Counted from the first letter of the stretch, positions 39,266 through 55,492 are shown. The stretch: 64,000 nucleotides of DNA from Candidatus Latescibacterota bacterium (GCA_965232265.1 CBDDPH010000002.1:1176290-1240289), one strand, 5' to 3'. Program-made: numbers and translations. The notes: generated by a model not told the origin, from the sequence alone.

Positions 39266-42200
39266 GATTCAATCCTTGTTCTATTGGAATGTCCTGCTGA
39301 ATTCGCTGCGACCAGGAGATGCCGATTCGCGGTACGCGTGTTTCAATCCTTGTTCTATTGGAATGTCCTGCTGAATTCGATGCTGGCAATCAGGTTGCGG
39401 CTGAAGCAATGACGTTTCAATCCTTGTTCTATTGGAATGTCCTGCTGAATCCTAAAACGCAGTGTAGAGGAGGGCTAAAAAATGGGTTTCAATCCTTGTT
39501 CTGTTGGAATGTCCTGCTGAATGACTATATTCTAATCAAGACAGAGAGATACCCACCGTTTCAATCCTTGTTCTGTTGGAATGTCCTGCTGAATGACTAT
39601 ATTCTAATCAAGACAGAGAGATACCCACCGTTTCAATCCTTGTTCTGTTGGAATGTCCTGCTGAATACGTGTCAATTTACCGATGGGTTTGGTGCGTATG
39701 TGTTGTTTCAATCCTTGTTCTGTTGGAATGTCCTGCTGAATTCTCGGCGTATGATCATCCCAATGTCGTGCACGGTCGCGTTTCAATCCTTGTTCTGTTG
39801 GAATGTCCTGCTGAATTGGCGACGGGTGAGGAAGATTTAGACGCGCCAGAACCCGTTTCAATCCTTGTTCTGTTGGAATGTCCTGCTGAATTAACGCCGA
39901 TCTGGTCGAGCGTGCTGACGTGCTGTGTGTTTCAATCCTTGTTCTGTTGGAATGTCCTGCTGAATGATCCCAAAACGGGGATTGTGGAGAAAACCATGAA
40001 TTTGTTTCAATCCTTGTTCTGTTGGAATGTCCTGCTGAATGAGGCTATCAGATGGCTATCTCCTTGTAGATACTGACGAGTTTCAATCCTTGTTCTGTTG
40101 GAATGTCCTGCTGAATGAGATTCTGAATCAGAACTTTCCGCAGGTCGAAAAGTTTCAATCCTTGTTCTGTTGGAATGTCCTGCTGAATCCAGCCGCGCCG
40201 ATTTGCACCACCAAAACGCCCGCACGTTTCAATCCTTGTTCTGTTGAAATGTCCTGCTGAATTTCGCGTATAGCCGTGACGTGTTTTCAACTTCAGACGT
40301 TTCAATCCTTGTTCTGTTGGAATGTCCTGCTGAATTGCACATGTTTAGGGATAGAGAATTAACTGATGAGGTTTCAATCCTTGTTCTGTTGGAATGTCCT
40401 GCTGAATCCGATGCGATTGCATCGGCTATGAAGAAAATCCCTGAGATGATGTTTCAATCCTTGTTCTGTTGGAATGTCCTGCTGAATCGAGGCGCGTGAA
40501 CCGCGTTTGTTTCGTCCGTCCATCGTTTCAATCCTTGTTCTGTTGGAATGTCCTGCTGAATTGACCGCCCTGATTTTGAAACTGTATGTCCCGACCGGTT
40601 TCAATCCTTGTTCTGTTGGAATGTCCTGCTGAATGTTTGCGGTACGCGAGCGGATGTCACCCGCCAAAAGTTTCAATCCTTGTTCTGTTGGAATGTCCTG
40701 CTGAATTGGTTTTGATCTTCTTAACGTACGTGACTTCACCCCAAGTTTCAATCCTTGTTCTGTTGGAATGTCCTGCTGAATGCGCATCTTTGATAAACCA
40801 ATGTTTATAAGCCGGCCTGTTTCAATCCTTGTTCTGTTGGAATGTCCTGCTGAATCCCGCGAAAGACCATGGTCTTGAGCCACAAAGGTACGGTTTCAAT
40901 CCTTGTTCTGTTGGAATGTCCTGCTGAATCGAATCAGAAATAACACTCATGCAAATCAATTCCCCAAGTTTCAATCCTTGTTCTGTTGGAATGTCCTGCT
41001 GAATTGACTTCTTGCCCTAAGTATTGCGACAATAGTTTAGTTTCAATCCTTGTTCTGTTGGAATGTCCTGCTGAATTCGTCATATTGAGCAAAAAGTGTT
41101 TCAATCCTTGTTCTGTTGGAATGTCCTGCTGAATACGGCGGTATTCTTTTTCGCATACAATTCTTTGCGTTTCAATCCTTGTTCTGTTGGAATGTCCTGC
41201 TGAATTATTAAAATGGCATACGAAAAAATGTTGGTCGTTGTGTTTCAATCCTTGTTCTGTTGGAATGTCCTGCTGAATTTTCTTGCGTCAGCCCGTTGAT
41301 GAAGTTTCAATCCTTGTTCTGTTGGAATGTCCTGCTGAATTAGTCGGAAGTCTCGTTTATGTTTCAATCCTTGTTCTGTTGGAATGTCCTGCTGAATAAC
41401 TGTCCGAATGAGCGAGACGGAATGGGAAACTTGTTTCAATCCTTGTTCTGTTGGAACTGAATCGCCGAGAAAGCAGGATGCTCAAGAATCTGGTTTCAAT
41501 CCTTGTTCTGTTGGAATGTCCTGCTGAATGCCGCCGCAATCGGCAGGTCAACATACAGGCATTAGACGGTTTCAATCCTTGTTCTGTTGGAATGTCCTGC
41601 TGAATCGGAATCTCGTTTGATGTTCACCCGCAGTACGTGATGTTTCAATCCTTGTTCTGTTGGAATGTCCTGCTGAATGGATCAGGTATTACCCCCCGAT
41701 ATAGTAGATGAAACTGTGGTTTCAATCCTTGTTCTGTTGGAATGTCCTGCTGAATGTCATAGGCCGTCTATAGAATAACAACTATGAGTATGGTTTCAAT
41801 CCTTGTTCTGTTGGAATGTCCTGCTGAATAAAGATTGCCCTTGTCTTTTCGCGCCTTGTAGATGGAAGTTTCAATCCTTGTTCTGTTGGAATGTCCTGCT
41901 GAATGTTGCAGTCAATCGCAGAGAAAAGCTGAAGGGATGCGGAGTTTCAATCCTTGTTCTGTTGGAATGTCCTGCTGAATTCAGTCAACTTATACTGCCC
42001 CACAAGAGCATCGCAGTTTCAATCCTTGTTCTGTTGGAATGTCCTGCTGAATAAATCGTTTGTGTGAGGCGGTTGAGGTTGAAAAAGGTTTCAATCCTTG
42101 TTCTGTTGGAATGTCCTGCTGAATTTTTCCTTTCTTCACGCCTTTGTTCCTATTGCATTCGTTTCAATCCTTGTTCTGTTGGAATGTCCTGCTGAATGAA

Positions 42201-42686
42201 TTTTTTGAGAATATACCCATTGAGTTTCAACCTGTTGGAATGTCCTGCTGAATAAACATCCATCAAAACCGACCAGACTAATGGTTTCAATCCTTGTTCT
42301 GTTGGAATGTCCTGCTGAATCGACGTCTAAGTTTCAATCCTTGTTCTGTTGGAATGTCCTGCTAAGCTGTTTTTCAATCGCATGTTTCAATCCTTGTTCT
42401 GTTGGAATGTCCTGCTGAATGGGGCGTGATTGATTACGGTTTCAATCCTTGTTCTGTTGGAATGTCCTGCTGAATACGGCGTTTAAGTTGGACATGGTAC
42501 CCGTTTCAATCCTTGTTCTGTTGGAATGTCCTGCTGAATGTAGAGGAGGAAATAGTTGGGATGAGGTTTTCAAACGCGTTTCAATCCTTGTTCTGTTGGA
42601 ATGTCCTGCTGAATTTTTTGCACCTGTGCCATGTGGTTTCACCCCCTTTGTTTCAATCCTTGTTCTGTTGGAATGTCCTGCTGAAT
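39266..42686 (-). CRISPR. CRISPR array: 49 repeats (37 bp; three internally or terminally truncated), 48 spacers of 10-43 bp
   Basis: Plus-strand repeat GTTTCAATCCTTGTTCTGTTGGAATGTCCTGCTGAAT. Its reverse complement ends in ATTGAAAC (the classic 8-nt crRNA 5' handle), so the array is transcribed on the minus strand like the cas genes. Degenerate terminal repeats (CTATTGG variants) at 39266-39450 mark the trailer end. The AT-rich leader is at 42701-42857. Confidence 0.95.
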
Positions 42687-42700
42687 CGCATTTTATGTAT

Positions 42701-44879: not shown

Positions 44880-45003
44880 CCAGTGGACGAAATTCGGCTC
44901 CATAGCCGTGTGATTGCCGGGCTGCGGTTCGCGCAATCCTATATCCCTAGCTTTTTATTTTTTTCTCGCCACGCCAAAGCCGCTACATTAAGCGGCTTTT
45001 TTT
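44880..45003 (+). ncRNA. candidate ~125-nt small RNA (promoter to terminator), antisense orientation relative to the cas genes
   Basis: Bounded by the promoter above and an intrinsic-terminator-like hairpin AAAGCCGCT-acatta-AGCGGCTTT plus TTTT (44976-45003). Holds no ATG-initiated ORF, only a GTG frame of 42 codons. Confidence 0.25.
44976..45003 (+). terminator. rho-independent terminator-like hairpin with U-tract (plus strand)
   Basis: 9-bp stem, 6-nt loop and 7 T residues. Confidence 0.45.
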
Positions 45004-45054: not shown

Positions 45055-45717
45055 CTAAACTTCACGCATCAAACCAAAACCATTGGACGTCAATTTACCG
45101 ATGCCAAGACCAGTAGGCAGAATCATATTGGAAACAAAGGATACTTTTACCCCCTTAAATACGACACCGTGATGTTTTAATGATAGAATTGAGAAGTTCA
45201 GGACACGAGTCATCAGACGTTCCGTGAGATAAATACCAATTCCTTTACATAGTGAGAGATAATTTCCATTCAGGATTTTCTCCAAAAGCTTTCTCCGGCT
45301 TTCAAATTTCGGTTCTTTCTGAAATATTGCGTGGTTCTTTTCATTAAGTGCCAGCCAGGGAGTAATTGAGCGATAACTGATTAGATTGTCTGATAGTCCG
45401 ATAACTGCTATCTCGTCTTCCAACTCTGCGCCCATAATTTGATATTGAATGCCTCCTATTCTGAGTGTATGACCTTGGCTGTAAATCTCTTGCAAAATTT
45501 GAAGGCCATCGTCAAAGGAAATGAGTTGTGGGAGGTTATTCAAGACGATATAGCGAACTCTGGGAGAGCGATAATCAAATTGATCTCCCTTATGATTATG
45601 TAATACTGGTCGATCAGAAAATGCGCCTGTTATTGCTCTTCGAAGTTCCGATCCATGATGCTTAAAGGGACGATCAGTGTAAATTTTTAAGCGTCGGATA
45701 TGTATATGTTCTGACAT
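45055..45717 (-). CDS. cas6: CRISPR-associated endoribonuclease Cas6
   Basis: C-terminal glycine-rich loop GLGIGKLTSNGFG and RAMP-like fold. Confidence 0.75.
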   Translation of the reverse strand: MSEHIHIRRLKIYTDRPFKHHGSELRRAITGAFSDRPVLHNHKGDQFDYRSPRVRYIVLNNLPQLISFDDGLQILQEIYSQGHTLRIGGIQYQIMGAELEDEIAVIGLSDNLISYRSITPWLALNEKNHAIFQKEPKFESRRKLLEKILNGNYLSLCKGIGIYLTERLMTRVLNFSILSLKHHGVVFKGVKVSFVSNMILPTGLGIGKLTSNGFGLMREV

Positions 45718-45761: not shown

Positions 45762-48137
45762 TCAAAAACACACCAAATTCGGCTCTTTTTCTGCCTTATA
45801 CCCAAACCTTTTATCATAGCCTCCGAGTTGGGTATCCAACATACACAGGTCGTCAACAGCATCGCTTGCATACACTTGTACAATGCGCTCCATCAAAGCA
45901 GCACGGATTTTATAGAATTCCATCTTGCGTTTTATTGGATTTTCGATTTCTTGGATCCCGAGATATTGATCCCAAATTTCTCGATCACCATTATCCTGGA
46001 CGATATAATAAGATTGTTGGGGTAATTCCTCGATAAGCTGAAAACGATCTTCTACCTCTTCAAACTGTCCACAGGCCAGCAGACGATCAATAGGTTCTTC
46101 ACTGTTATGTGTGCGTTCATAAACCATTTTGAAATAAGATTCTCCCAACTCCAAAAATTGAGATTCCTTGACTTCTTCATATTGGCTTAGGAGCTCTTGC
46201 GTTGCACCTATCAATACTGGGCTATAAATCCGTGTGAACTGTTTCTCTCGTTCATCTATTAAAGACCAAACTCTTACAATTCCTCCATCACCATCTCCAT
46301 GCCGATTACAACGTCCCGATGTTTGAATAATCGCGTCTAATGGTGCAAGATCCCTTTCAATCCGATCTACACTCAGATCAACACCTGCTTCTATCAATTG
46401 TGTCGTAATGACCAAAACGGGTTGATCTGAAGCCAGTGCTTTGCCAATGTCTTCAATCCGATCTTTGCGGTCTTTAGGCGTCAGCAGTGCTGAAAGCGGG
46501 TAGATGCAAAATCCTTCGATGTTGACCTTTTTTTCAAATATTTCTGTTAGCTCACCCACAAGCTTTCGATAATTGACCACAATCATACGACTGAGATCCG
46601 GATTTTGATGAATTTCTTCGACAATTTCATTTATAAAACTCTCAAGAAGTGTATTCTCAGTTGCCCGATTGACAAGACACACACGCGATAGTTTTTGATA
46701 ATATTCTGGATGTTTGGGTAAAAGCTCTCTGGACATATCGGGTGTAAAAATCAACGGTTTTGTGGCTGTCATTAGTATGAAGCGCGTTTCAAGACATCGG
46801 CTCATCACTTGCAATATATTGCGAATAGCTCGCCAGTATTTCGGAGGAATGGCCTGCACCTCATCGAGAATGACAATGGCTCTACGCAGCGTTGGCAAGC
46901 GTTTGAGATTCCGATTTCTGCCTGTGAAAAACGTATGAAGAAATTGATAAAATGTGGTCACTACAAGTTCTGATTGCCAGGTTTCAACGAAAAGCTCGGC
47001 CCCATCAGGATCAAACTCCGGGTCTAAAGAGCGGTATTTCATATCTGTGAGATGGTGATGTTTTAAGAGCAAATCCGTTGTTTCGGCAAGTCCTCCATGT
47101 TCTAATACTTTTCGATAGACATCGTGATTTTGGTCAATAATCGCAGTAAAAGGCAAGCAATAGATGATACGCGGGTTTTCTTGATAGACTTCATGCAATT
47201 CATGGCGCAGACGAATTGCTGCATCCAAAGCAGTCAAAGTTTTTCCCGATCCGGTTGGTGCGGTAAGCGTAAATAATTTCTCATCTGAATGAGCAGATAA
47301 CTCACATAAAACATCATCTCTTATACGGTCTCTCGGTTCATCAAGAGGAGACGGTTTATGGTCAGAGTCTTGTTTTAAGTGCATCAAATATTGAGAGACA
47401 AGAGAATCGGGAATTGCCAGACGACTGAATTCTGTTTCTCCTGTTGCGGTATGGATTTTATCCATCTGTAAAAGACTGCCAAATCCAAATAAGAAATCCA
47501 CCGCTTGATCAAATTGCTCCAAACAGACCTCCTGATCGTTATTTGGAAAAGCTTTTCGCAGACGAAAGGGAGATATGTCCTGTACAGCTTTCCGCAGAAC
47601 CGATCCATTGAGATCAGGCACTTCAAAGTGAAGGTCGAACTCAAGCAAGGTCTTCCTTAGCCATTGTGTAATACCAAAGAGGTCCATGCTGTTAATTTGA
47701 CGAGCAAATGTCCCTTGTGGGGCAGAATCTTCTCGAAGATGGCCTCTGGCCTCGGCATAATAGTCCGTCCACGACTTTCGCAGATTGCCATGGTGTTTCA
47801 TAACAGATGTAATCACCGAGAGTTGGAATTGATAGGCAGCTGTCTGGTCGGGTGCTTGGACGCTTTGACTAATCAACCAACCAATGATCGCAGAAACAAA
47901 TGAATGGTTGGAGAGTTCAGACTTTTCTCCTTTACGGCCCGGTTGAACGCGCTCTTGAAACCAAAAGGTCGCTTTACCCAAATCATGGACGAGGGCAGAC
48001 AATAGTGCAGCCTGGGAAGGGAGAGACCGGCTACCTTTCCACAGTTGATTTACACCTTTGGCGACCTCTGTAAGGTGCGTTTGCAGAAAGTCGTCTGGCG
48101 GATGCGCCAAACATTCAGAAAAACAGTATTTGGTCAT
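45762..48137 (-). CDS. cas3: CRISPR-associated helicase/nuclease Cas3 (HD + SF2 helicase)
   Basis: HD domain (LVHDLGKATFWFQ), helicase motif I APTGSGKT and DEAH-like DEVQ. Confidence 0.9.
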   Translation of the reverse strand: MTKYCFSECLAHPPDDFLQTHLTEVAKGVNQLWKGSRSLPSQAALLSALVHDLGKATFWFQERVQPGRKGEKSELSNHSFVSAIIGWLISQSVQAPDQTAAYQFQLSVITSVMKHHGNLRKSWTDYYAEARGHLREDSAPQGTFARQINSMDLFGITQWLRKTLLEFDLHFEVPDLNGSVLRKAVQDISPFRLRKAFPNNDQEVCLEQFDQAVDFLFGFGSLLQMDKIHTATGETEFSRLAIPDSLVSQYLMHLKQDSDHKPSPLDEPRDRIRDDVLCELSAHSDEKLFTLTAPTGSGKTLTALDAAIRLRHELHEVYQENPRIIYCLPFTAIIDQNHDVYRKVLEHGGLAETTDLLLKHHHLTDMKYRSLDPEFDPDGAELFVETWQSELVVTTFYQFLHTFFTGRNRNLKRLPTLRRAIVILDEVQAIPPKYWRAIRNILQVMSRCLETRFILMTATKPLIFTPDMSRELLPKHPEYYQKLSRVCLVNRATENTLLESFINEIVEEIHQNPDLSRMIVVNYRKLVGELTEIFEKKVNIEGFCIYPLSALLTPKDRKDRIEDIGKALASDQPVLVITTQLIEAGVDLSVDRIERDLAPLDAIIQTSGRCNRHGDGDGGIVRVWSLIDEREKQFTRIYSPVLIGATQELLSQYEEVKESQFLELGESYFKMVYERTHNSEEPIDRLLACGQFEEVEDRFQLIEELPQQSYYIVQDNGDREIWDQYLGIQEIENPIKRKMEFYKIRAALMERIVQVYASDAVDDLCMLDTQLGGYDKRFGYKAEKEPNLVCF

Positions 48138-48801
48138 CGCCCACCTCATAAGCTTGATCGGTTTCAACCGTTATTGAATCACCATCCTCTGCGACAACGA
48201 CCTCCCGGTAATCTACAACTGTTCTATCTGGTTGCATTTGTGCTGGTACTCGATAGCGAACATAGCACCGACCCGGTTCATATCTGCAATTTTCTTCGGG
48301 ATCAGGTACAACAGAGGCAATATTACACTCCGTCTGCGAAAGTAGCTGGGCCTCAAATGCACCGACAAAAACAACATTTGCGATACATTGTGCAAGGCCA
48401 AGAGACGGTGTATAGACTGTTCTGCCCGTCCGAAGTTGGTCCTCCAGGTCTTGCATGGCTTCATCTGTGGCTTCTGCAATATAAATCCGAAAAGCTGGAT
48501 CAATAAGAAATTCATAGGGATACTGACCCCGTAAAGCGCTGTCTTTCTTTCTCGGATCAGGTTCTAAGCGGAGATTTAGCCCTGTCCTGTATTTTCGGGT
48601 TGCGCGGAGCAAGCGAATACCGACACGCACATTTTCCCATCCAATTTTAGTCAGGTATTCTTCCTTTCCATAACCAACAATAGCACCCGTAAGCCCCAAA
48701 ATGGTCGGTGGTGGTGGAAAAGGATAAGTTACAGGAGAAGCAGGCGCATACGGTTTGCGAAAATGTCCATAAGGCCCACTCACATCGAATACAATGGTGT
48801 G
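48115..48801 (-). CDS. cas5: CRISPR-associated protein Cas5
   Basis: N-terminus IVFDVSGPYGHFRKPYA typical of Cas5. Confidence 0.8.
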   Translation of the reverse strand, partial: HTIVFDVSGPYGHFRKPYAPASPVTYPFPPPPTILGLTGAIVGYGKEEYLTKIGWENVRVGIRLLRATRKYRTGLNLRLEPDPRKKDSALRGQYPYEFLIDPAFRIYIAEATDEAMQDLEDQLRTGRTVYTPSLGLAQCIANVVFVGAFEAQLLSQTECNIASVVPDPEENCRYEPGRCYVRYRVPAQMQPDRTVVDYREVVVAEDGDSITVETDQAYEVGDDQILFF

Positions 48802-48808
48802 CATTAGA

Positions 48809-49795
48809 TCACCCAATGGTCAAGGGGGTTGATTGCAGGTCACGACTTACAGCCAGTGATGTAAAATCGCCTTCACTATCTCCGTCTCTAAGTTTAAGGC
48901 GAGAATCCTGAACAATCTCCAATCCTTCAATATCATCTTTAAGCTCGCTAAGACCATCGAGCAATTGTGTGACGTTGATTTCATAATCATCAATCGAACG
49001 AATAGCTATGTCCTCTTTTTCGCTTGTCAAAGAGATTCGACCAGAAAGGTCGCCCAAGCGTCGTCCATTGGCGTAGCTTATCACCAATAGCAAAAGAGGT
49101 TGATGGCCCATCTTTGATCGGCTGATCAGTGATTCCGTCCCCTTCCAGAGTCCTTCGAACAATAACGAAACGTCATCTTCCGATAATTCAGTTGTCTGCG
49201 CTGCGATTTCATTGACAATGCCATACGCAGATATAAGAGCATAAGGGAGCATGTGGTCTTCACGAAAAGATTTCTGAGTGGCATTCTTCCTTGATGCAAA
49301 ACCTGCTGTTCCTTGTATAAGCTGCGGACTTACACGATGCAATGAGCGATTGAATCCTGAAAACTGGACTGGTCCTGTTAGACGTATAGATGACTTTTTT
49401 TTGCTACTTTGTTCCACTGGTAGAGTTGCTCCAAAAAGCCTTGCATCAATACAACGTTCCAAGATGATGCCACGGACTTTCCTGACCATTTCCGTAATTG
49501 TATCGGCTTTGGTCACGCCCGCTTCCTCAAGAAAATCATCACAACGACCTTTTCCATCTTTGAGATACCCTTGTTCATCTTCTGTATCTCTGACAAGGAT
49601 TTCAAGGTCTTTGGTTTGAAACAAATAATCTCGCACAGTTCTCTTTATCCTCACGTCGGTTACAGTTGCCACTCCAGTTTCGGGATCGGTACGCGGTTTG
49701 TTTTCATCAAGGGGATCACCATTGGGATTACAGTCTTTTGTTTCGTACAGAAATAGAATTTCCATACGGTTTTTAATCGAATTTTGATCAGCCAT
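48809..49795 (-). CDS. cas7: CRISPR-associated protein Cas7 (Csh2/DevR family)
   Basis: ILFLYETKDCNPNGDPLDENKPR signature. Confidence 0.85.
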   Translation of the reverse strand: MADQNSIKNRMEILFLYETKDCNPNGDPLDENKPRTDPETGVATVTDVRIKRTVRDYLFQTKDLEILVRDTEDEQGYLKDGKGRCDDFLEEAGVTKADTITEMVRKVRGIILERCIDARLFGATLPVEQSSKKKSSIRLTGPVQFSGFNRSLHRVSPQLIQGTAGFASRKNATQKSFREDHMLPYALISAYGIVNEIAAQTTELSEDDVSLLFEGLWKGTESLISRSKMGHQPLLLLVISYANGRRLGDLSGRISLTSEKEDIAIRSIDDYEINVTQLLDGLSELKDDIEGLEIVQDSRLKLRDGDSEGDFTSLAVSRDLQSTPLTIG

Positions 49796-49796
49796 T

Positions 49797-51581
49797 TTAG
49801 TCTCCTTCTTCTTCAGTTAAGACAGCATTTTTATCTGTTTCCCGGATTTTACCTGCAAGGCTCATGCCCAGTGTAAAAGCAAAAGTCGATTCTTCGTCAG
49901 AGATATTCCATTCTTCGCCGCATTTAATCCACGCTTCTGCGAGTTGCGGATCAAGTGTTTTAGCGACCAATCCAAAGCTATTATACTGGTGCAATTTAGT
50001 TTGTGCCTCGGGATAAATCTGCTGGAGTTTCCGACGATCCATTTTTATACCCTGAACTTTTTTTAAAAACGGTGTCCGTTTATCGAGGTTCTGATATTGA
50101 ACGGATGTCACTGCGCTAACATAACAGCCGGTCAGAAAAGCAACGACTTTTTCTTGGCAATCAAAAAACTCAGGATGATCTGTTACATACTTTCCATACA
50201 CATTGTCGGATTCTACCATTGTTACACCTCCTTTCGGTGGGGTTAAAATATCAAGAAGACTTAGAAAGCGATATGTCGCCCAAGCATCTCGGACGGTAAA
50301 TATGGCTTTATCCGGTTCTCTTTTGTAAGATGCGAGAATAACGGATACAACATCTCGCAAAAATACCTCACGAGCAATTTTGCTTGTGCGACCAGCGAAA
50401 ATTTGGTCAACATAAGTCAAGAACTGCTTCTGGCTACTTTTGTCCGTTCTTGTGCCCGTAAATTGGCGTAAGGTTTTCAGGGTAAAACCGTAGGTCTTAT
50501 TCTTACCAAAAACCAATAGAGGATCGGAATCTATCTGGCTTTTGATACGGTATATTTCTTGAATGCGTGAAGGTAAAACAGTCGGAATTTCAGCGGTAAT
50601 TCTCCAAGCGGCATTCTTTTTTTGAAAAAAGATCAGGGACAAGATAATCTCATCTTTGTCTCCAGAAACATCAGCGATTGCTTCCAGAATCTCATCTTCA
50701 GAGTTTGTAATTGTCTTCAAGGCATCCTTCTTAAGCGAAATGCCTCGTTCGCGTTTCTCCAATTCTTCAATGACATAGTGCCTCAATTCAGGGTTGTGAA
50801 TTTGGGGCAAAAGCAGATACAATTCTCCTGCTAAGTTGAATTGGAGATTTGAATTGACAAAATTCCAACCTTTAGACACCGCAAGCATACAATAATCACA
50901 TACAGGAAAATTTCGTGTCGCAGCACTATGATCCATACCGCCCGCGATTAAACCTCTTTTATCGAGATTATAGCACGAGATCAATGAGAAATTTCCATAT
51001 ACCTTATCTGCCAGTTTGCCACATACAGAACAAACTTGATTTTCAGCTTCTAATGGCTGTTTCTGGACGCGCCCATATCGGGAGAGTACCTCAGAGATTG
51101 CGAATTGTTTGACATATTCGTTTTCGTAAAATGGGACTGGTTTAGTACCTTCAAGCCAACTCAAATACACAAAAGGATATTTTTCATGTGTATCAAGCTT
51201 TTCAAGCTCATTTTTAATATCCTCAGCAATTTGAGGCTCATTATATCCGTCCAGAATATTATCTATCTGGTCCTGAACGGATTCAGCCTGTGGTGATTGA
51301 TTAAAAGTCTCTAAACATTTCCGAAGTCTGTGTGTAACTTTCTTAGAACAGCCTGCATATTTTGAGATGGCCAATGGATCAAATCCATTGGGAGCACCTT
51401 TAATATAGATCACATTTTTGCTACCTTCTGTTATTATGATGTTTTTGTATTGACCAACTTCATCGAAACAGACAGCCAATCCATAATGATATGACGGTTC
51501 CAGACCTTCATTCAAAAGTTTAATACGATCACTTTCATCGCCATAACGAATCTGAGAAATGTGAAGTAGCCGTTCAAACAT
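49797..51581 (-). CDS. cas8b: CRISPR-associated large subunit Cas8b (Csh1-like)
   Basis: 594 aa and the first gene of the cas operon. Cys-rich segment CSVCGK...CDYC typical of Cas8b. AAGGA RBS. Confidence 0.7.
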   Translation of the reverse strand: MFERLLHISQIRYGDESDRIKLLNEGLEPSYHYGLAVCFDEVGQYKNIIITEGSKNVIYIKGAPNGFDPLAISKYAGCSKKVTHRLRKCLETFNQSPQAESVQDQIDNILDGYNEPQIAEDIKNELEKLDTHEKYPFVYLSWLEGTKPVPFYENEYVKQFAISEVLSRYGRVQKQPLEAENQVCSVCGKLADKVYGNFSLISCYNLDKRGLIAGGMDHSAATRNFPVCDYCMLAVSKGWNFVNSNLQFNLAGELYLLLPQIHNPELRHYVIEELEKRERGISLKKDALKTITNSEDEILEAIADVSGDKDEIILSLIFFQKKNAAWRITAEIPTVLPSRIQEIYRIKSQIDSDPLLVFGKNKTYGFTLKTLRQFTGTRTDKSSQKQFLTYVDQIFAGRTSKIAREVFLRDVVSVILASYKREPDKAIFTVRDAWATYRFLSLLDILTPPKGGVTMVESDNVYGKYVTDHPEFFDCQEKVVAFLTGCYVSAVTSVQYQNLDKRTPFLKKVQGIKMDRRKLQQIYPEAQTKLHQYNSFGLVAKTLDPQLAEAWIKCGEEWNISDEESTFAFTLGMSLAGKIRETDKNAVLTEEEGD

Positions 51582-51611
51582 GATTTTTTCCTTTTGTTAT
51601 AAAGTGATGAT

Positions 51612-51707
51612 TCCTAAATCCTTGTTTTAATGGATTTTGCAGACTAATTTTTCATTTACAAACAAACCATGCTTCAATCCTTGTTTTGATAGAGATTGAT
51701 TGGCCAG
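51612..51707 (-). repeat. degenerate CRISPR repeat - 22-nt spacer-like - degenerate repeat unit upstream of cas8b
   Basis: 51612-51648 tcctaaatccttgttttaatggattttgcagactaat (~23/37 identical to the repeat). 51671-51707 gcttcaatccttgttttgatagag... (20/23 identical over the first 23 nt). Same orientation as the main array; sits 31 nt upstream of the cas8b ATG. Confidence 0.55.
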
Positions 51708-51770
51708 TAATGTTCACCAGATATAGAAAATAAAAGTTGCTTTTTTGGGGAGGTTGGCTATATTTTTTGT

Positions 51771-51836
51771 CAGCGACCAGAATGGGCCGGTGCTAACCGA
51801 CCCGGGACTAATGTCCCTGGCCGCTACTTTTTTTAT
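51771..51836 (+). other. structured GC-rich element with multiple hairpins followed by a T-run
   Basis: cagcgacc...gggccggtgctaaccgaccc gggactaatgtccc tggccgct then ctttttttatttct, between the DUF3800 stop and the mini-array. Confidence 0.3.
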
Positions 51837-51871
51837 TTCTACGCCAATACTTCCGAAAACTTTCCCCCTTC

Positions 51872-52633
51872 CTATGGGCTAGCGGGAACGAAACGAGGGA
51901 GATTTGTGCTCGGGTACCATGTATCCCCGTCATGGATTAACGGCTCTATGCCTGCAATACCGCTTTCATCTATAGCTTTAATCGGAAAACCTGCTTTTTG
52001 CTCTTCCTTTTTTCGTGCGCTTAAGACACACAGATCGCATAGTTGTAGCATCAGACTCTTTGAAGATTCAATAAAGAACCCCTTTTCTATAACGTGGTCG
52101 AGTTGCAGCGCCCCCCCTTCACGCAGCATGCGGATTGACTCCTCGACATCGTAAATCACCTCTTTGTTCTCGTCCGAAATAAAAATGCCCAACTCTTGGC
52201 CTGGAAGGTCTTGTAAATAGTGATTAATAATCTGGGCTACCAGCCTAAAGACCATGACATGTGGATTGATCGGCCTATTTGATCCAAAAGATCGTAGCCA
52301 ATTCTTAAAGTGACTTTTGACAACAGCCCTGTATATGAGTTTTAGATTATGGCGGCGTGCAATGTCAAACCAGGTGTCGCGCAGGGCTACGCGATCACTA
52401 ATACTCATACCATCAAAGTCTTTTCTCCCTGAACGAATATCTGTACCGTGAATCTCAAAGTTGTCTCGTCGGGGAGGCGGAAAGTGGTCATCTATCACAT
52501 TCTGCAACTCCTGCTCGATATTGGTCCAAATATGATCTGGAATGATCAGTGCAGCCAATACAAAAATGGGTTGTTGTGTATCGTCTAAATTGTTGCCGGT
52601 ATTACCAGATTCATCAAAATAAATGAGATGCAT
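51872..52633 (-). CDS. DUF3800 domain protein
   Basis: N-terminal MHLIYFDESGNTG motif diagnostic of DUF3800. Start set at this Met. Confidence 0.65.
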   Translation of the reverse strand: MHLIYFDESGNTGNNLDDTQQPIFVLAALIIPDHIWTNIEQELQNVIDDHFPPPRRDNFEIHGTDIRSGRKDFDGMSISDRVALRDTWFDIARRHNLKLIYRAVVKSHFKNWLRSFGSNRPINPHVMVFRLVAQIINHYLQDLPGQELGIFISDENKEVIYDVEESIRMLREGGALQLDHVIEKGFFIESSKSLMLQLCDLCVLSARKKEEQKAGFPIKAIDESGIAGIEPLIHDGDTWYPSTNLPRFVPASP

Positions 52634-52715
52634 ATCAAATAGTGCCCTATTGTCTTCAGAGATTTGGGTGATCACATAGACAAAGTAATTTGGACGACTA
52701 TTTAGAAACATACCA

Positions 52716-53720
52716 TTAAATCAATACAGTGTCAACCCGTTTTTTTTTCTGCTCATACATCCTCCCCGCCGCGATCATATCCTTTGCGATGACCTGTCGC
52801 AACGCCTCTGGTTCTATCACCTCGCAATCTGCGCCCCAGCCTCTGATCCACGGTTTCATCTCCAGCGTGTGGCTCACGGTTAAGGTCATGAGACAGCCGC
52901 CGTCTGGCAGGTCGTCAATGGCATCGACGCAGGGCCAGTCCGATTCCCGCACGCGGTATGCCACATTGGGCGAAAAGCGGAGTTTGACGACAATGCGCTC
53001 ATCGCCCCCCATCACGCCCCATGCTTGCGTGAGATAATCGTAGGGATCGAAATGGTCTCGGATCTGATAGGACGAGTCGAGGATTTTGACCTGCTGCACG
53101 CGCTCGATTTTGAACTCTCGGATGTCGCGGCGCAGATGGTCATACCCAATCACATAACAGGCATATCCCACGGGCGACGGCTCGATAAAATAGGGGTCAA
53201 AGACGCGCCTGGTGGTTTCATCGGTGTATGGATTGTAATACGTCAAACGCACCTGTTTGCGTTCAGACCACGCGCGGGTAAAGGTCTCCAAAATGCGGAT
53301 GTACTCGCGATGCGGTCTGCGCTTGCGCGTGGCTTCGGCGGTTCGGGCGATGTGTTGACCGATTGATTCGGGGAGTGCGCTGGCGAGTTTTTCAAGTGCC
53401 GAGACGACATGGGGATTGTGTTTGTCGCTGTGTGCTGAGAGCAGCCGGGCTGAGAGATACAGTGCGAGGGACTCGTGCAGATTTACGCGCACAGATGTGA
53501 TATAGCGGTCTTTGTGCATGCCGAATCTGCCATTGCGTTCCCAGATGGGCACGTTGAGCTTGGAAAGGGAGTCGATATCGCGATAGATGGTGCTGCGGTG
53601 ACAGCGCAGTTTTTTGCCCAATTCCAAAGCTGTAAGTCCCTGAGCAGATTGAAACAGGATGCGACCCAGTTCAATGAGTCGCTCTGAACGCTTAAATTGT
53701 TGTGTATTGTTATTTGGCAT
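52716..53720 (-). CDS. HTH + WYL-domain transcriptional regulator (YafY-like)
   Basis: N-terminal winged HTH (LIELGRILFQSAQGLTALELGKKLRCHRSTIYRDIDSL) and central WYL domain (VRLTYYNPYTDETTRRVFDPYFIEP...YVIGYDHLRRDIREFKIERV). Start placed at MPNNNTQQFKRSERL. Local coordinates are uncertain by 1-3 nt. Confidence 0.75.
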   Translation of the reverse strand: MPNNNTQQFKRSERLIELGRILFQSAQGLTALELGKKLRCHRSTIYRDIDSLSKLNVPIWERNGRFGMHKDRYITSVRVNLHESLALYLSARLLSAHSDKHNPHVVSALEKLASALPESIGQHIARTAEATRKRRPHREYIRILETFTRAWSERKQVRLTYYNPYTDETTRRVFDPYFIEPSPVGYACYVIGYDHLRRDIREFKIERVQQVKILDSSYQIRDHFDPYDYLTQAWGVMGGDERIVVKLRFSPNVAYRVRESDWPCVDAIDDLPDGGCLMTLTVSHTLEMKPWIRGWGADCEVIEPEALRQVIAKDMIAAGRMYEQKKKRVDTVLI

Positions 53721-54014
53721 AGTGGTCTCCGCAGATAGTATAATGGGGGTGTGTTCCACATGTTGCGACAGATTTTAAAAAATATGATCGCAATTTTATT
53801 TTACCCAAAAAAAATAAAGCCGAGGGGATGTGTTTATCCCACCGGCTAATAAGTTCAGAGATTGAAAGGTTGAGTACTACCAAAGGGCAAGAGCTATGGG
53901 ATGACGGAACATATATGCACAGCGCGCTATTCCGTCAACCGCTGTTCTTTTAGTTTGCATCTAACTTTGAAGGCCACAACCTGGCGTCCATCCACCTGAG
54001 CATTTTGCGCTGTG

Positions 54015-54073
54015 CAAGCCCCCCGCAGGGGCGCCCTTTTTTTGCTTCATTTTTTTGGGCGCGCAAAAAAATG
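54015..54073. other. two adjacent palindromes (GC-rich hairpin + T-run; AT-rich cttcattttttt-gggcgcgc-aaaaaaatgaag)
   Basis: Located about 40 nt downstream of the 97-aa gene stop and in the divergent WYL promoter region. Confidence 0.35.
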
Positions 54074-54110
54074 AAGTCGCCGAAGGCATGAAAAAAAATA
54101 ATAAAAAACT

Positions 54111-54404
54111 TTATACGTCATTCCAATTCGAGGTGGTTAGAGAGCGATGGGTCATGCCTACGATTTTACCAGTATGGTCATTGATTTCAACGACTTTGAA
54201 CGAACGATTCTTCCAGTCTTTTCCCCCGAGGTTGGCTGCTAGGCTCCGCCGTTCCCAGGGGCGAGAGAACCCTATGGTTATTTTCCAGGCATTTGCTGTT
54301 TCGTCGAATACTACCTCTTCAAGTCCTAAGTCCTGAACTTCCTCGTCGGCAAACAGTTCGGTTATGTATTTGTTCGCCGTCCGCACGGCTTCTTTTACGT
54401 TCAT
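54111..54404 (-). CDS. hypothetical small protein (97 aa)
   Basis: Clean ORF directly downstream of the nuclease gene on the same strand. No recognisable family. Confidence 0.5.
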   Translation of the reverse strand: MNVKEAVRTANKYITELFADEEVQDLGLEEVVFDETANAWKITIGFSRPWERRSLAANLGGKDWKNRSFKVVEINDHTGKIVGMTHRSLTTSNWNDV

Positions 54405-54502: not shown

Positions 54503-55492
54503 TTAAAAAAGTGAGAGTTGGACGGGGTCTTGTTCTGGGGTGGGTTGTCTGGCAGGTCTCTCATCGGGATAGCACACGGCTTTGAAGGGGCAGGTGGTAC
54601 ACAGGTGGGTATTGGTCGTCATTGGGAAGGTGTCTTGCGAAGCGGTGTTTTGCTCGGGATCGTCGAGAAGCGCACGCATTTTCTGGACGCTCTCGGTGAC
54701 AAAGATACGGGTCTGGTCGAGGTCGTCGGGCGAAAGTTCCAGAGTGCGTTCGGCGTTGGTTTGCAGGTAGATGTCCTGGAGTTGCAGGTCGGATAATGCC
54801 ACGCCCCACTGCGAGGTGGCGTACAGGGCGTACACCGCGAGTTGGTGGCGGTCGGCCTGGCGTTCGCGCCCGGTTTTCCAGTCGAAGACAGAGACCGATT
54901 GGGCGCGGCGAATTGCCACGTCGAGCACGACCCAGATTTTGGTACTGACTTGACCCGAGTCAGCACATGCATTGGCAAGGGTAAAATCTGAGAGTTTTTC
55001 GATGGTGAGATAGTCTTCGGGACGGGCAGCTTGCAGGGTGGCGTAGGCATCGGAGGCAAAAAAACCATTGAGGCTTGTGGAGATGTGATTGGTGGAAGCG
55101 ATCTGGTCGGTTTCTGTAAAGGGTTCGTTGTAATAGTGTTCAAACAGATTGGTGTATTGAGAGGCCGAATAGCGCCAGAGGCGATCTCGGGAGGCTTGCA
55201 GGTGTTGGTGGAATAAATTTTGCGCGTAGGTCTCAACGGCAAAGGGGAGAATATTGCGTCCCAATTTCAGGGCATTGAGCGCGTTGCTGATGGCGTCGTG
55301 AACCACGGTACCGACGAGTTGCGGTACTGTGGTTATTTTTTTCAGGCGGTAGAGCAGTTGGGCCTGCGCGTCTGCGCCTTTGTCCCAGCCGCCCCAACTG
55401 CCGTAGTAGTTGAAGTAGTATTGTCGCTTGCACGATTCAAACATGCGATGGCGCGATGGCGACCAGGAAAATTCGTTTTGGAAATTGGACAT
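54503..55492 (-). CDS. Cas4-like PD-(D/E)XK nuclease with 4-Cys Fe-S cluster (solo, outside the cas operon)
   Basis: N-terminal Cys (FESCKRQYYF), motifs VVLDVAI / SVFDWKTG (D...D-x-K), QLAVYALY (QhxxY) and C-terminal CTTCPFKAVC. Start ATG is 3 nt after the aroA stop. Confidence 0.7.
   Translation of the reverse strand: MSNFQNEFSWSPSRHRMFESCKRQYYFNYYGSWGGWDKGADAQAQLLYRLKKITTVPQLVGTVVHDAISNALNALKLGRNILPFAVETYAQNLFHQHLQASRDRLWRYSASQYTNLFEHYYNEPFTETDQIASTNHISTSLNGFFASDAYATLQAARPEDYLTIEKLSDFTLANACADSGQVSTKIWVVLDVAIRRAQSVSVFDWKTGRERQADRHQLAVYALYATSQWGVALSDLQLQDIYLQTNAERTLELSPDDLDQTRIFVTESVQKMRALLDDPEQNTASQDTFPMTTNTHLCTTCPFKAVCYPDERPARQPTPEQDPVQLSLF

What the first reader, a model, noticed from the sequence alone, without database searches (positions are those of the whole stretch)
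51612..51707. Degenerate repeat-spacer-repeat mini-array directly upstream of the cas operon (crRNA-like regulator candidate, CreA/CreR-type)
Two decayed copies of the CRISPR repeat (about 62% and 87%-then-diverged identity) flank a 22-nt spacer-like segment (ttttcatttacaaacaaaccat). The unit lies 31 nt upstream of the cas8b start, in the same orientation as the main array. The last 8 nt of the upstream pseudo-repeat in crRNA sense read ATTGAAGC (7/8 of the ATTGAAAC handle). Cas6 could therefore still process a crRNA-like RNA with a truncated spacer. In several type I systems such units encode crRNA-like RNAs that guide Cascade, through partial seed-only complementarity, to repress a small toxin gene (CreTA) or the cas promoter itself (CreR). 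This position, overlapping the cas8b promoter region, fits that role. I could not find an 8-nt or longer seed match to the spacer-like segment within about 400 bp by eye, so the target, if any, is unidentified. The alternative is a decayed remnant of a second array.
Basis: partly seen in the sequence, partly recalled or inferred. Interest (0 to 1): 0.72.

Follow-up and report, generated by a model that had tools for sequence, protein, structure and literature searches.

The report
CRISPR mini-array that represses its promoter
The two decayed CRISPR repeats in front of the cas genes very probably encode a guide-like RNA that steers the cell's own CRISPR complex onto a promoter 1 kb upstream to switch it off; this kind of self-regulation is already known, and here it also controls an inserted nuclease gene.

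Summary
Window 51612..51707 holds two repeat-like units (23/37 and 22/37 identical to the array repeat) around a 22-nt spacer-like segment, 30 nt upstream of cas8b, in the array's orientation.

It exists, 1046 nt upstream. The first 17 nt of the pseudo-spacer (ATGGTTTGTTTGTAAAT) match minus-strand 52716..52700 (ATGGTATGTTTCTAAAT) at all 15 pairing positions. The only mismatches in that stretch are at positions 6 and 12, which type I Cascade flips out. The site follows TTA and covers the -10 box of the best sigma-70-like promoter call in the region (TTGACA-17-TATGTT).

That promoter is followed by a DUF3800 (RNase H-like) gene, a conserved three-way-junction RNA, the mini-array and cas8b.

Eight loci, grouped into five sequence-distinct pseudo-spacer/target pairs, show the same logic with TTA or TTG. 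They include type I-B systems with Cas8b only 20-37% identical. Relatives without a target show a decaying pseudo-spacer.

This is a CreR/CreA-type regulatory mini-array that controls a cargo gene, a known kind (Liu 2023; Shmakov 2023; Shu 2024). It is a new member. Transcription, Cas6b processing, repression and the PAM are not shown experimentally.

The parts
51671..51707 (-). psiR1, the upstream pseudo-repeat in RNA sense (CTGGCCAATCAATCTCTATCAAAACAAGGATTGAAGC). It supplies the 8-nt 5' handle ATTGAAGC.
   Evidence: 22/37 identical to the array repeat. The repeat's 3' half (the hairpin's 3' arm plus the handle) is kept: 16 of the last 18 nt in RNA sense. The hairpin is in register with the repeat hairpin. 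Only 2 of 37 columns vary among four group-A loci.
51649..51670 (-). psiS, the spacer-like guide segment (ATGGTTTGTTTGTAAATGAAAA). Positions 1-17 (51670..51654) are the pairing part.
   Evidence: Matches the target at 15/15 pairing positions. Among group-A loci the only substitution in positions 1-17 is at non-pairing position 12.
51609..51648 (-). psiR2, the downstream pseudo-repeat (ATTAGTCTGCAAAATCCATTAAAACAAGGATTTAGGAATC). It has an intact 6-bp hairpin AAAUCC/GGAUUU and is the presumed 3' Cas6b site.
   Evidence: Rfam CRISPR-DR7 hit, 27.1 bits, E 0.01. Fold. 23/37 identical to the array repeat.
52700..52716 (-). Target (protospacer-like site) ATGGTATGTTTCTAAAT. It matches psiS positions 1-17 except positions 6 and 12.
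   Evidence: It is the only exact match to ATGGTNTGTTTNTAAAT in 64 kb besides psiS itself. Shuffles give 0.16 even when 2 mismatches are allowed. 0 of 200 Markov shuffles reach the score.
52717..52719 (-). TTA, the presumed PAM immediately 5' of the target.
   Evidence: TTA or TTG stands at this position in all 8 loci that have a target. The system's PAM could not be measured independently.
52707..52735 (-). Promoter-like site P1: TTGACA, 17 nt, TATGTT, with an upstream TG. The -10 hexamer is protospacer positions 5-10.
   Evidence: Scored 10/12, the joint-best consensus call in 51400..54200. The other 10/12 call lies about 1.4 kb further upstream, near 54190. The geometry of a -10 box at protospacer positions 5-10 recurs in L010 and L017.
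51872..52633 (-). DUF3800 (RNase H-like) cargo gene, 253 aa, starting MHLIYFDESG. It is the first gene downstream of the targeted promoter.
   Evidence: Pfam PF12686, E 1.2e-13. Start inferred from the DESG motif and from homologue lengths of 254-262 aa.
51771..51826 (-). Three-way-junction RNA structure directly 3' of DUF3800 and upstream of the mini-array. No U-tract follows it in this sense.
   Evidence: Minus-sense fold -35.5 kcal/mol, z -4.5. Plus-sense fold -28.1 kcal/mol. It is conserved with compensatory changes after DUF3800 genes in L038, L039 and L040. No Rfam hit.
49797..51581 (-). cas8b, the first gene of the type I-B interference operon. It is followed by cas7 49795..48809, cas5 48816..48115, cas3 48167..45762 and cas6b 45717..45055.
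   Evidence: NCBIfam and Pfam hits.
39268..42686 (-). Main CRISPR array (48 repeats), which competes for the same Cas6b and Cascade. The leader lies at 42687..~42857.
52716..53759 (-). HTH-WYL-WCX regulator gene immediately upstream of P1. It is a likely second regulatory layer.
   Evidence: Pfam and PADLOC hits. The same position is occupied in all syntenic relatives.

Best explanation
The unit is a regulatory mini-array of the CreR/CreA type belonging to a type I-B CRISPR-Cas system, most likely of a Latescibacterota bacterium.

Proposed mechanism:
1. It is transcribed on the minus strand. This is inferred. Transcription most likely reads through from promoter P1 at 52735..52707, because no consensus promoter or terminator lies between P1 and cas8b.
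2. Cas6b cuts in psiR1 and psiR2. This yields a crRNA-like RNA of about 59 nt with the handle ATTGAAGC and a short guide (inferred).
3. The RNA is loaded into Cascade (Cas8b, Cas7, Cas5). It pairs through guide positions 1-17 with the TTA-flanked site 52716..52700. That site covers the -10 box and start region of P1. The complementarity and the geometry are shown.
4. The match stops after 17 nt and the RNA is about 14 nt shorter than a normal crRNA. Cascade should therefore bind and block RNA polymerase without licensing Cas3 (inferred by analogy with CreA, CreR and the I-F1 mini-array).
5. P1 drives the DUF3800 nuclease gene with its 3' structured RNA. It probably also drives the mini-array and the cas8b-cas6b operon.

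The result would be a negative feedback loop. Plenty of free Cascade closes P1. Titration of Cascade by array crRNAs, or its inhibition or loss, opens P1, which replenishes Cas proteins and releases the DUF3800 cargo.
For: (1) The repeat-like units are real, non-random, hairpin-competent and correctly oriented.

(2) A unique target exists in the window. It matches 15/15 pairing positions, with mismatches only at positions 6 and 12 within the paired stretch and again at 18. It is preceded by TTA. 0 of 200 shuffles reach this score.

(3) The target overlaps the -10 box of a promoter call made independently of the target search: TTGACA-17-TATGTT, 10/12, with an upstream TG.

(4) Pseudo-spacer and target covary in five sequence-distinct pairs. 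They are not fully independent, because their targets share a GTATG..TT core and are probably homologous promoters.
- Group A (window, L024, L029, plus L038).
- L002: ATGGTATGGTTCTGTTAA against ATTGTATGGTTATGTTAA.
- L028: ATTAGCTGTTTTTTGC against ATTAGGTGTTTTTTGC.
- L010: TATGTTTGATTCGAAT against TATGTATGATTTGAAT.
- L017: CACGTTTAATTGGGAAA against CACGTATAATTTGGAAA.
Every target lies on the sense strand, follows TTA or TTG, and sits at or within 25 nt downstream of a promoter-like site. The tool called that site in L002, L028 and L010. In L017 I read it by eye, because its 15-nt spacing is outside the tool's range.

(6) Constraint tracks the presence of a target. In group A, psiR1 and the paired part of psiS are 5-6% variable while the flanks are 25-33% variable. 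In group B, which has no target within 10 kb, psiS is 52% variable, its upstream flank 4% variable, and the psiR2 hairpin decays. L001 has lost psiR1 and psiS.

(7) The mechanism has experimental precedent for I-B, I-E, I-F and V-A systems (bioRxiv 10.1101/2023.03.10.532045, 10.1101/2023.03.03.530964, 10.1101/2024.01.05.574328).
Against: - There are no expression data. Transcription of the unit, Cas6b cleavage at the altered psiR2 site (GGATTTAGGA instead of GGATTGAAAC) and Cascade loading are all unproven.
- The PAM of this system is not known independently. One phage BLAST and six IMG/VR spacer scans found no protospacer.
- P1 is only a consensus match, and sigma-70-type rules may not hold fully in this phylum.
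- Read-through from P1 across DUF3800 and a very stable 3' structure into cas8b is assumed. A non-consensus promoter nearer to cas8b cannot be excluded.
- The 5' handle carries one change (ATTGAAGC against ATTGAAAC).
- Group-B relatives keep a mini-array without any detectable target. Persistence alone therefore does not prove function.
Confidence: 0.8

Rival explanations
1. The unit is a non-functional, decaying remnant of a second CRISPR array or of an old leader-end duplication. The similarity to 52716..52700 is a leftover of a local duplication of promoter sequence rather than a guide-target pair.
For: Both pseudo-repeats are only about 60% identical to the array repeat. Group-B relatives and L001 show that such units can persist without a target while they decay. 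Targets in different lineages share a GTATG..TT core, so they are probably homologous promoters rather than fully independent inventions.
Against: The mismatches between psiS and target fall on positions 6, 12 and 18, counted from the predicted handle boundary, in the window, L017, L010, L024 and L038. A duplication that drifted without constraint would scatter them. Double (compensatory) differences keep the pairing in five sequence-distinct pairs. TTA or TTG is always present. In group A, psiR1 and psiS are the most conserved stretch of the intergenic region. The unit is kept in front of Cas8b proteins only 20-37% identical to this one.
Confidence: 0.07
2. The unit is a toxin-guarding module in the strict CreTA/CrePA sense. 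Its essential job is to keep a toxic DUF3800 nuclease, with its 3' RNA, silent. Loss or inhibition of Cascade then kills or arrests the cell, giving addiction and anti-anti-CRISPR protection. Regulation of cas genes would be secondary or absent.
For: The first gene after the targeted promoter is DUF3800. DUF3800 is an RNase H-fold predicted nuclease, an effector partner in type VII retrons and an accessory gene in some class 2 CRISPR loci (PMC7736814, PMC10910872, PMC12669027). In L010 and L017 the same slot holds a PIN toxin next to a MazE-like antitoxin gene. Shmakov et al. report toxin-antitoxin enrichment between mini-arrays and cas genes.
Against: Toxicity of this DUF3800 protein is unknown. 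In L002 the same promoter, target and mini-array have no cargo and sit directly before cas8b. In L028 the cargo is a sigma-70-family protein. The feature common to all loci is therefore control of the cas-proximal promoter. The same DUF3800-plus-RNA cassette also lives outside CRISPR loci without any mini-array (L039, L040).
Confidence: 0.3
3. The pseudo-repeats act only in cis, as Cas6b binding or cleavage sites in the 5' untranslated region. They would separate the DUF3800 message from the cas message, or tune cas8b mRNA stability and translation. The released fragment would have no guide function.
For: psiR2 lies 30 nt before the cas8b ATG. Its 3' end plus the leader (AAGGATTTAGAAT[C/T]AT) is kept even in L025 and L028, where the sequence upstream of it has been replaced. 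No promoter is called between DUF3800 and cas8b, so the unit probably lies inside a longer transcript.
Against: This does not explain why psiS matches a PAM-flanked promoter site with a six-nucleotide mismatch period, nor why psiS and target covary. It is compatible with the main explanation as an additional effect.
Confidence: 0.1

Closest known systems
CreR (Cas-regulating RNA) mini-CRISPRs of type I-B, I-E and V-A systems (Liu et al., bioRxiv 10.1101/2023.03.10.532045)
   Same: Two degenerate repeats flank a pseudo-spacer beside the effector genes. psiR1 keeps the 5' handle and psiR2 keeps the 3' hairpin. The PAM-proximal part of psiS matches a PAM-flanked site at the promoter of the effector operon. 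The predicted outcome is autorepression that senses crRNA load and anti-CRISPR attack.
   Different: Here a 253-aa DUF3800 gene and a structured RNA lie between the targeted promoter and the mini-array, so the target is 1 kb away rather than adjacent. The mini-array seems to be part of the transcript it represses. Nothing has been tested experimentally. The host phylum (Latescibacterota, inferred) is new for this element.
Cargo-regulating mini-arrays in type I loci (Shmakov et al., bioRxiv 10.1101/2023.03.03.530964, published in NAR 2023)
   Same: The mini-array position is conserved. The cargo (toxin-antitoxin genes, regulators) sits in a variable slot next to the first effector gene. Targets lie in cargo promoters. 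Relatives occur with a mini-array but no cargo, and with neither. Sixth-position mismatches are noted there too.
   Different: That work documents cargo slots mainly for I-D systems. Here the system is I-B and the cargo is DUF3800 plus an RNA motif (elsewhere PIN or a sigma-70-family protein). In the window, the cargo lies upstream of the mini-array, between target and guide, not downstream of it.
CrePA: CreA RNA plus a CRISPR-repressed protein toxin in Acinetobacter I-F (Shu et al., bioRxiv 10.1101/2024.01.05.574328)
   Same: A protein-coding gene lies behind a promoter that matches the first 17-19 nt of psiS except sixth-multiple positions, with a canonical PAM. The idea that the cargo fires when Cascade is inhibited also fits.
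   Different: CreP is a 103-aa KilAC-domain protein in a I-F locus. Here the cargo is a DUF3800 RNase H-like protein in a I-B locus, and its toxicity is unknown.
CreTA RNA toxin-antitoxin of Haloarcula hispanica I-B (Li et al. 2021, as summarised)
   Same: The subtype is I-B, the element is CreA-like, it sits just upstream of cas8, and it represses through a partial match.
   Different: No small creT RNA gene or rare-codon mini-ORF was found here. The targeted promoter runs in the same direction as cas8b, not divergently.

Membership tests
Regulatory mini-array / CreR-type crRNA-like RNA | Two repeat-like sequences flank a spacer-like segment, inside or next to the cas locus and separate from the main array | tested here: met
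   Units at 51612..51648 and 51671..51707 flank a 22-nt segment and lie 9 kb from the array. The repeat core is found nowhere else in the window.
Regulatory mini-array / CreR-type crRNA-like RNA | psiR1 keeps the 8-nt 5' handle and psiR2 keeps the Cas6 hairpin | tested here: met
   The handle is ATTGAAGC (7/8). Hairpins are in register with the repeat hairpin. psiR2 hits Rfam CRISPR-DR7.
Regulatory mini-array / CreR-type crRNA-like RNA | Partial, PAM-proximal complementarity of psiS to a site in a promoter of cas or cargo genes in the same locus | tested here: met
   15/15 pairing positions over nt 1-17 match 52716..52700, which overlaps the -10 box of TTGACA-17-TATGTT. No pairing beyond nt 17.
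Regulatory mini-array / CreR-type crRNA-like RNA | The target is flanked by the functional PAM of the system | tested here: inconclusive
   TTA (6 loci) or TTG (2 loci) always precedes the target. No protospacer for any array spacer was found, so the real PAM is not known.
Regulatory mini-array / CreR-type crRNA-like RNA | Conservation in related loci, with coevolution of psiS and target | tested here: met
   Five sequence-distinct pairs (not fully independent). Group-A psiS varies only at position 12.
Regulatory mini-array / CreR-type crRNA-like RNA | The RNA is made, processed by Cas6 and loaded into Cascade; repression depends on Cascade and on the seed | not testable with these tools
   Needs RNA-seq or Northern blots and reporter genetics.
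CreTA (RNA toxin plus CreA) | An adjacent small creT RNA toxin gene whose promoter is the CreA target | tested here: not met
   The gene after the targeted promoter is a 253-aa DUF3800 protein gene. The structured RNA at 51771..51826 has no promoter of its own in this sense and also occurs with DUF3800 outside CRISPR loci.
CrePA (protein toxin plus CreA) | A protein-coding gene lies directly behind the CreA-targeted promoter | tested here: met
   DUF3800 starts at 52633, about 67 nt downstream of the predicted transcription start.
CrePA (protein toxin plus CreA) | The toxin is a KilAC-domain protein | tested here: not met
   Pfam gives only PF12686 (DUF3800).
CrePA (protein toxin plus CreA) | The cargo is toxic when derepressed | not testable with these tools
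   There is only indirect literature support that DUF3800 is an RNase H-like effector.
Type I-B CRISPR-Cas | Cas8b, Cas7, Cas5, Cas3, Cas6b and Cas1, Cas2, Cas4, with a 37-nt repeat ending in ATTGAAAC | tested here: met
   TIGR02556/TIGR02591, TIGR02590, TIGR02592, the cas3 core and HD domains, the Cas6b N- and C-terminal domains, and TIGR00287 all hit. Array shown. cas2 and cas4 were not scanned in the window; their identity rests on ORF position and on Pfam calls for the syntenic genes in relatives.

The most novel reading that the evidence does not exclude
The promoter silenced by the mini-array is a general 'guarded slot' of this type I-B lineage, into which different effectors have been inserted. 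The window and L038 carry a DUF3800 RNase H-like nuclease with a dedicated 3' three-way-junction RNA. L010 and L017 carry a PIN toxin split from its MazE-like antitoxin. L028 carries a sigma-70-family protein. On this reading the DUF3800-plus-RNA cassette is a self-contained toxic or abortive-infection module that fires when Cascade is depleted or blocked by anti-CRISPRs. That would be the first protein guard described for I-B. It would also give the first functional context for the DUF3800-associated RNA motifs, which have been unexplained since 2017.
Probability: 0.25. Interest if true: 0.7.

Novelty: new member of a known kind. Interest (0 to 1): 0.5.

Why it matters
If the model is correct, it adds a clean and evolutionarily well-supported example of Cascade autoregulation by a crRNA-like RNA. 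The host is an uncultivated phylum and the Cas8b family has not been examined for this before.

The six-nucleotide mismatch period fixes the register of the guide without any experiment, and it suggests TTA/TTG as the PAM.

The model also places a DUF3800 nuclease and its conserved RNA partner under CRISPR control. DUF3800-associated RNAs have had no functional hypothesis. A Cascade-guarded promoter offers a concrete test: derepress it and look for toxicity or phage defence.

In practical terms, such units predict how cas expression in these systems responds to crRNA load and to anti-CRISPRs. They also show that short guides can be used for self-safe repression.

Tried and rejected
1. **Exact k-mer search for a target.** Searching psiS k-mers of 9-14 nt in the window gave only chance-level 9-mers. 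The target appeared only when every sixth position was ignored.

2. **Independent PAM determination.** 4 kb of concatenated spacers blasted against 50,697 phage records gave no match. Six spacer scans of IMG/VR also gave no match. BLAST of 451 spacers against all fetched loci gave only array-to-array hits and chance 15-16-mers.

3. **Phage-borne mimic of the guide.** An IMG/VR scan for handle plus seed gave 7 hits. These are two phage coding sequences with no second repeat, so they are chance matches.

4. **Divergent small RNA.** I considered a plus-strand small RNA (CreT-like) at 51745..51835. I rejected it because the structure is more stable in the minus sense, where G-U pairs become A-C mismatches on the plus strand. 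It also belongs to the DUF3800 cassette wherever that cassette occurs.

5. **Rfam search of 51400..53000.** There was no hit for the structured RNA and none for any DUF3800 motif.

6. **A newly acquired strong promoter in group B.** I suspected one, TTGCAT-17-TACATT. The scan tool does not call it (7/12), so I dropped the argument.

7. **Targets for group-B pseudo-spacers.** None were found at any register within 10 kb on either side.

8. **Seed-only match after cas6b.** A 9/10 seed match with CTT just after cas6b (~45020) is within the chance range of the scan.

9. **Metagenome scan.** The scan with the Cas8b alignment returned only distant loci. Close relatives came from exact-protein look-ups instead.

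10. **Alignment error.** One row (L021) of the RNA alignment had wrong coordinates and should be ignored.

Full report
**Layout of the locus.** All relevant genes are on the minus strand.
- HTH-WYL-WCX regulator: 53759..52716.
- DUF3800 gene: longest ORF 52711..51872.
- A 290-nt intergenic region.
- cas8b 51581..49797, cas7, cas5, cas3, cas6b (45717..45055).
- cas1, cas2, cas4.
- Leader, then a 48-repeat array at 42686..39268.

The array repeat in crRNA sense is ATTCAGCAGGACATTCCAACAGAACAAGGATTGAAAC. This is a complete type I-B system. Relatives with 79-90% identical Cas8b come from Candidatus Latescibacterota metagenome-assembled genomes, with the same synteny (aroA, PD-(D/E)XK gene, WYL, cas). 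The window most likely comes from that phylum.

**Checking the observation.** The finding is accurate.
- Unit 51612..51648 is 23/37 identical to the repeat.
- Unit 51671..51707 is 22/37 identical, with 16/18 in the part that gives the hairpin 3' arm and the handle in RNA sense.
- The two units enclose 22 nt and end 30 nt before the cas8b ATG.
- The repeat core with at most 1 mismatch occurs only in the array and in these two units. Shuffles give 0.34 against 50 observed.
- In RNA sense the unit reads psiR1 (..AACAAGGATTGAAGC), psiS (ATGGTTTGTTTGTAAATGAAAA), psiR2 (ATTAGTCTGCAAAATCCATTAAAACAAGGATTTAGGA).
- psiR2 is recognised by Rfam's CRISPR-DR7 model (27.1 bits, E 0.01, below the gathering score).
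- Both units fold into the repeat's small hairpin, in register.

**The missing target.** Exact k-mers gave nothing. I then scored psiS positions 1-18 against both strands while ignoring every sixth position, which type I Cascade flips out of the duplex. One site stands out: minus strand 52716..52700, ATGGTATGTTTCTAAAT, preceded by TTA.
- It matches 15 of 15 pairing positions. The mismatches up to position 18 are at 6, 12 and 18, and pairing stops from position 18 on.
- The pattern ATGGTNTGTTTNTAAAT occurs exactly twice in 64 kb, as psiS and as this site. Shuffles give 0.16 hits even when 2 mismatches are allowed.
- 0 of 200 Markov shuffles reach the score.

**What the target is.** A separate consensus scan calls a sigma-70-like promoter on the minus strand at 52735..52707 (TTGACA, 17 nt, TATGTT, with an upstream TG). 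It scores 10/12. That is the joint-best call in 51400..54200; the other 10/12 call lies about 1.4 kb further upstream. No promoter and no terminator is called on that strand between the DUF3800 stop codon and cas8b.
- The -10 hexamer is protospacer positions 5-10.
- The DUF3800 reading frame most likely starts at ATG 52633 (MHLIYFDESG). This fits the Pfam domain start and homologue lengths of 254-262 aa.
- The target is therefore promoter and start region, not coding sequence.
- Downstream of DUF3800 lies a very stable three-way-junction structure (51826..51771; -35.5 kcal/mol, z -4.5). No U-tract follows it in the sense direction.

**Comparative evidence.** I fetched the cas8b neighbourhoods of 12 close relatives and several distant ones and compared their upstream regions.
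- **Group A** (window, L021, L024, L029) has the same arrangement. psiS positions 1-17 differ only at position 12. The targets in L024 and L029 are again TTA-flanked with mismatches at 6 and 12.
- **L002** has no cargo. The only promoter called (TTGACA-17-TATCTT) is followed directly by TTA and then ATTGTATGGTTATGTTAA. The mini-array 106 nt downstream carries ATGGTATGGTTCTGTTAA.
- **L028** has an unrelated psiS (ATTAGCTGTTTTTTGC). Its TTA-flanked match lies 25 nt after a TTGACA-16-TAATAT promoter. A sigma-70-family gene sits between target and mini-array.
- **L010** (Cas8b 37% identical) and **L017** (35%) are distant I-B systems with their own psiS sequences. Each matches a site over the -10 box of the promoter just upstream, with mismatches at 6, 12 and 17 (L010) or 6, 12 and 18 (L017). 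There the mini-array is followed by a PIN toxin gene and preceded by a MazE-like antitoxin gene.
- **L038** carries the group-A module (promoter, TTG plus target, DUF3800, structured RNA, mini-array) in front of a Cas8b only 20% identical to the window's.

Across eight loci the flanking trinucleotide is TTA or TTG.

**Constraint follows the target.** In group A, psiR1 (5% variable columns) and the paired part of psiS (6%) are the most conserved parts of the intergenic region. The flanks are 25-33% variable. In group B (L022, L026, L027, L030) the promoter and target region has been replaced by a small divergent ORF. No target is found within 10 kb at any register. psiS becomes the most variable segment (52%, against 4% for its upstream flank), and the psiR2 hairpin weakens. 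L001 has deleted psiR1 and psiS. L025 keeps only the 3' end of psiR2. These patterns are what selection on guide-target pairing predicts. A neutral remnant would not show them.

**Mechanism.**
- Shown by sequence: a correctly oriented repeat, guide, repeat unit with intact hairpins; a unique 17-nt match in the right register, flanked by a presumed PAM, over a promoter's -10 box; covariation of the pair.
- Inferred: the unit is transcribed, probably from P1 as part of a DUF3800, RNA, mini-array, cas8b transcript. Cas6b releases an RNA of about 59 nt, against 73 nt for normal crRNAs. Cascade carrying it occupies P1 and blocks initiation. The short guide and the 17-nt match prevent Cas3 recruitment.
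- Expected behaviour: autorepression that relaxes when array crRNAs or anti-CRISPRs draw Cascade away. This has been demonstrated for CreA and CreR in Haloarcula I-B, Salmonella/E. coli I-E and Cas12a, for a Pseudomonas I-F1 mini-array and for CrePA in Acinetobacter.

**Comparison with known systems.** Shmakov et al. already describe mini-arrays whose spacers partly match cas8 promoters or promoters of cargo genes such as toxin-antitoxins and regulators. They also describe variable cargo hot spots, empty relatives and sixth-position mismatches. The element therefore belongs to a known kind. It meets all sequence-level criteria for a regulatory mini-array. The PAM criterion is only internally consistent, because I found no protospacers for any of the array spacers tried. 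It is not a CreTA module in the strict sense, since there is no small RNA toxin gene. It is not CrePA by homology either, since the cargo is DUF3800 and not KilAC.

What is specific here is the host lineage, the Cas8b (TM1802) family, the placement of the cargo between target and guide, and the cargo itself.

**The cargo.** DUF3800 proteins are predicted RNase H-fold nucleases. They are linked to many unrelated structured RNAs of unknown role (PMC5737381). They partner type VII retrons (PMC7736814) and serve as accessory genes in some class 2 CRISPR loci (PMC10910872, PMC12669027). This subfamily is widespread (581 hits). The three-way-junction RNA follows the gene also in a defence island (L039) and in a housekeeping neighbourhood (L040), with compensatory changes. 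It has no Rfam match. The gene plus its RNA is thus a mobile cassette that has landed behind a Cascade-controlled promoter. Whether it is toxic is unknown.

**Verdict.** This is a new member of a known kind. My confidence in the guide-target relationship is about 0.8. Confidence is lower, about 0.5, that P1 also drives the cas operon. It is about 0.25-0.3 that the DUF3800 cassette acts as a guarded toxin.

Noticed in passing
window 51771..51826 (minus); also L038 1772..1828, L039 4781..4838, L040 4769..4823: A ~56-nt three-way-junction RNA (TAGCGGCCAGGGAC..GTCCC GGGTCGG..CCGGCCC ..CTGGTCGCTG) follows the stop codon of DUF3800 genes of this subfamily in CRISPR and non-CRISPR contexts. Both hairpins show compensatory changes. 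It has no Rfam hit. It may be one of the unexplained DUF3800-associated RNA motifs or a new one.
   Followed up: partly
L010 5097..5944 and L017 8989..9944: In two distant type I-B loci the promoter, target and mini-array sit between a MazE-like antitoxin gene and a PIN toxin gene, directly upstream of cas8b. The toxin of a classical toxin-antitoxin pair therefore appears to be placed under Cascade control.
   Followed up: partly
L038 860..2010: The same promoter, target, DUF3800, RNA and mini-array module (psiS identical over nt 1-17) precedes a Cas8b only 20% identical to the window's. The junction lies right after psiR2, and the flanking trinucleotide is TTG instead of TTA. This suggests module exchange by recombination at the pseudo-repeat.
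   Followed up: partly
L022, L026, L027, L030 (about 100 nt upstream of cas8b); L001 5930..5965: Close relatives keep a mini-array without any detectable target. Their pseudo-spacers diverge fast. L001 has lost psiR1 and psiS. In these loci a small divergent ORF (51-66 aa, no Pfam hit) replaces the promoter and target region.
   Followed up: yes
window 52716..53759 (minus): An HTH-WYL-WCX regulator of the CRISPR-associated kind lies immediately upstream in every syntenic relative. In the window its reading frame runs through the -35 box of P1 and stops at the TAA that overlaps the TTA PAM. In L024 and L029 it stops about 30 nt earlier.
   Followed up: partly
window 54503..55492 (minus): A PD-(D/E)XK, Cas4-like nuclease gene (best PADLOC hit: an Argonaute-associated Cas4-like nuclease) lies between aroA and the WYL regulator. 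It is conserved in relatives. Its link to the CRISPR locus is unclear.
   Followed up: no
window 39486..39666, 41436..41465, 42228..42257, 42320..42440: The main array has irregularities. One spacer is duplicated in tandem (100% identical, period 72). Two repeats carry internal deletions of 7-8 nt. Several spacers near the leader end are unusually short (18-27 nt). These may be real rearrangements or long-read assembly errors.
   Followed up: no
window 44976..44999: A strong 9-bp hairpin with flanking A and T runs lies in the 247-nt gap between cas6b and cas1. It may separate the interference and adaptation transcription units.
   Followed up: no
arrays of L021-L030 compared with window 39268..42686: Among loci with 82-91% identical Cas8b, the 5' 15 nt or so of the repeat differ almost completely, while the 3' 20 nt or so (hairpin plus ATTGAAAC) are invariant. 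Low identity of a pseudo-repeat to the local repeat therefore overstates its decay.
   Followed up: partly
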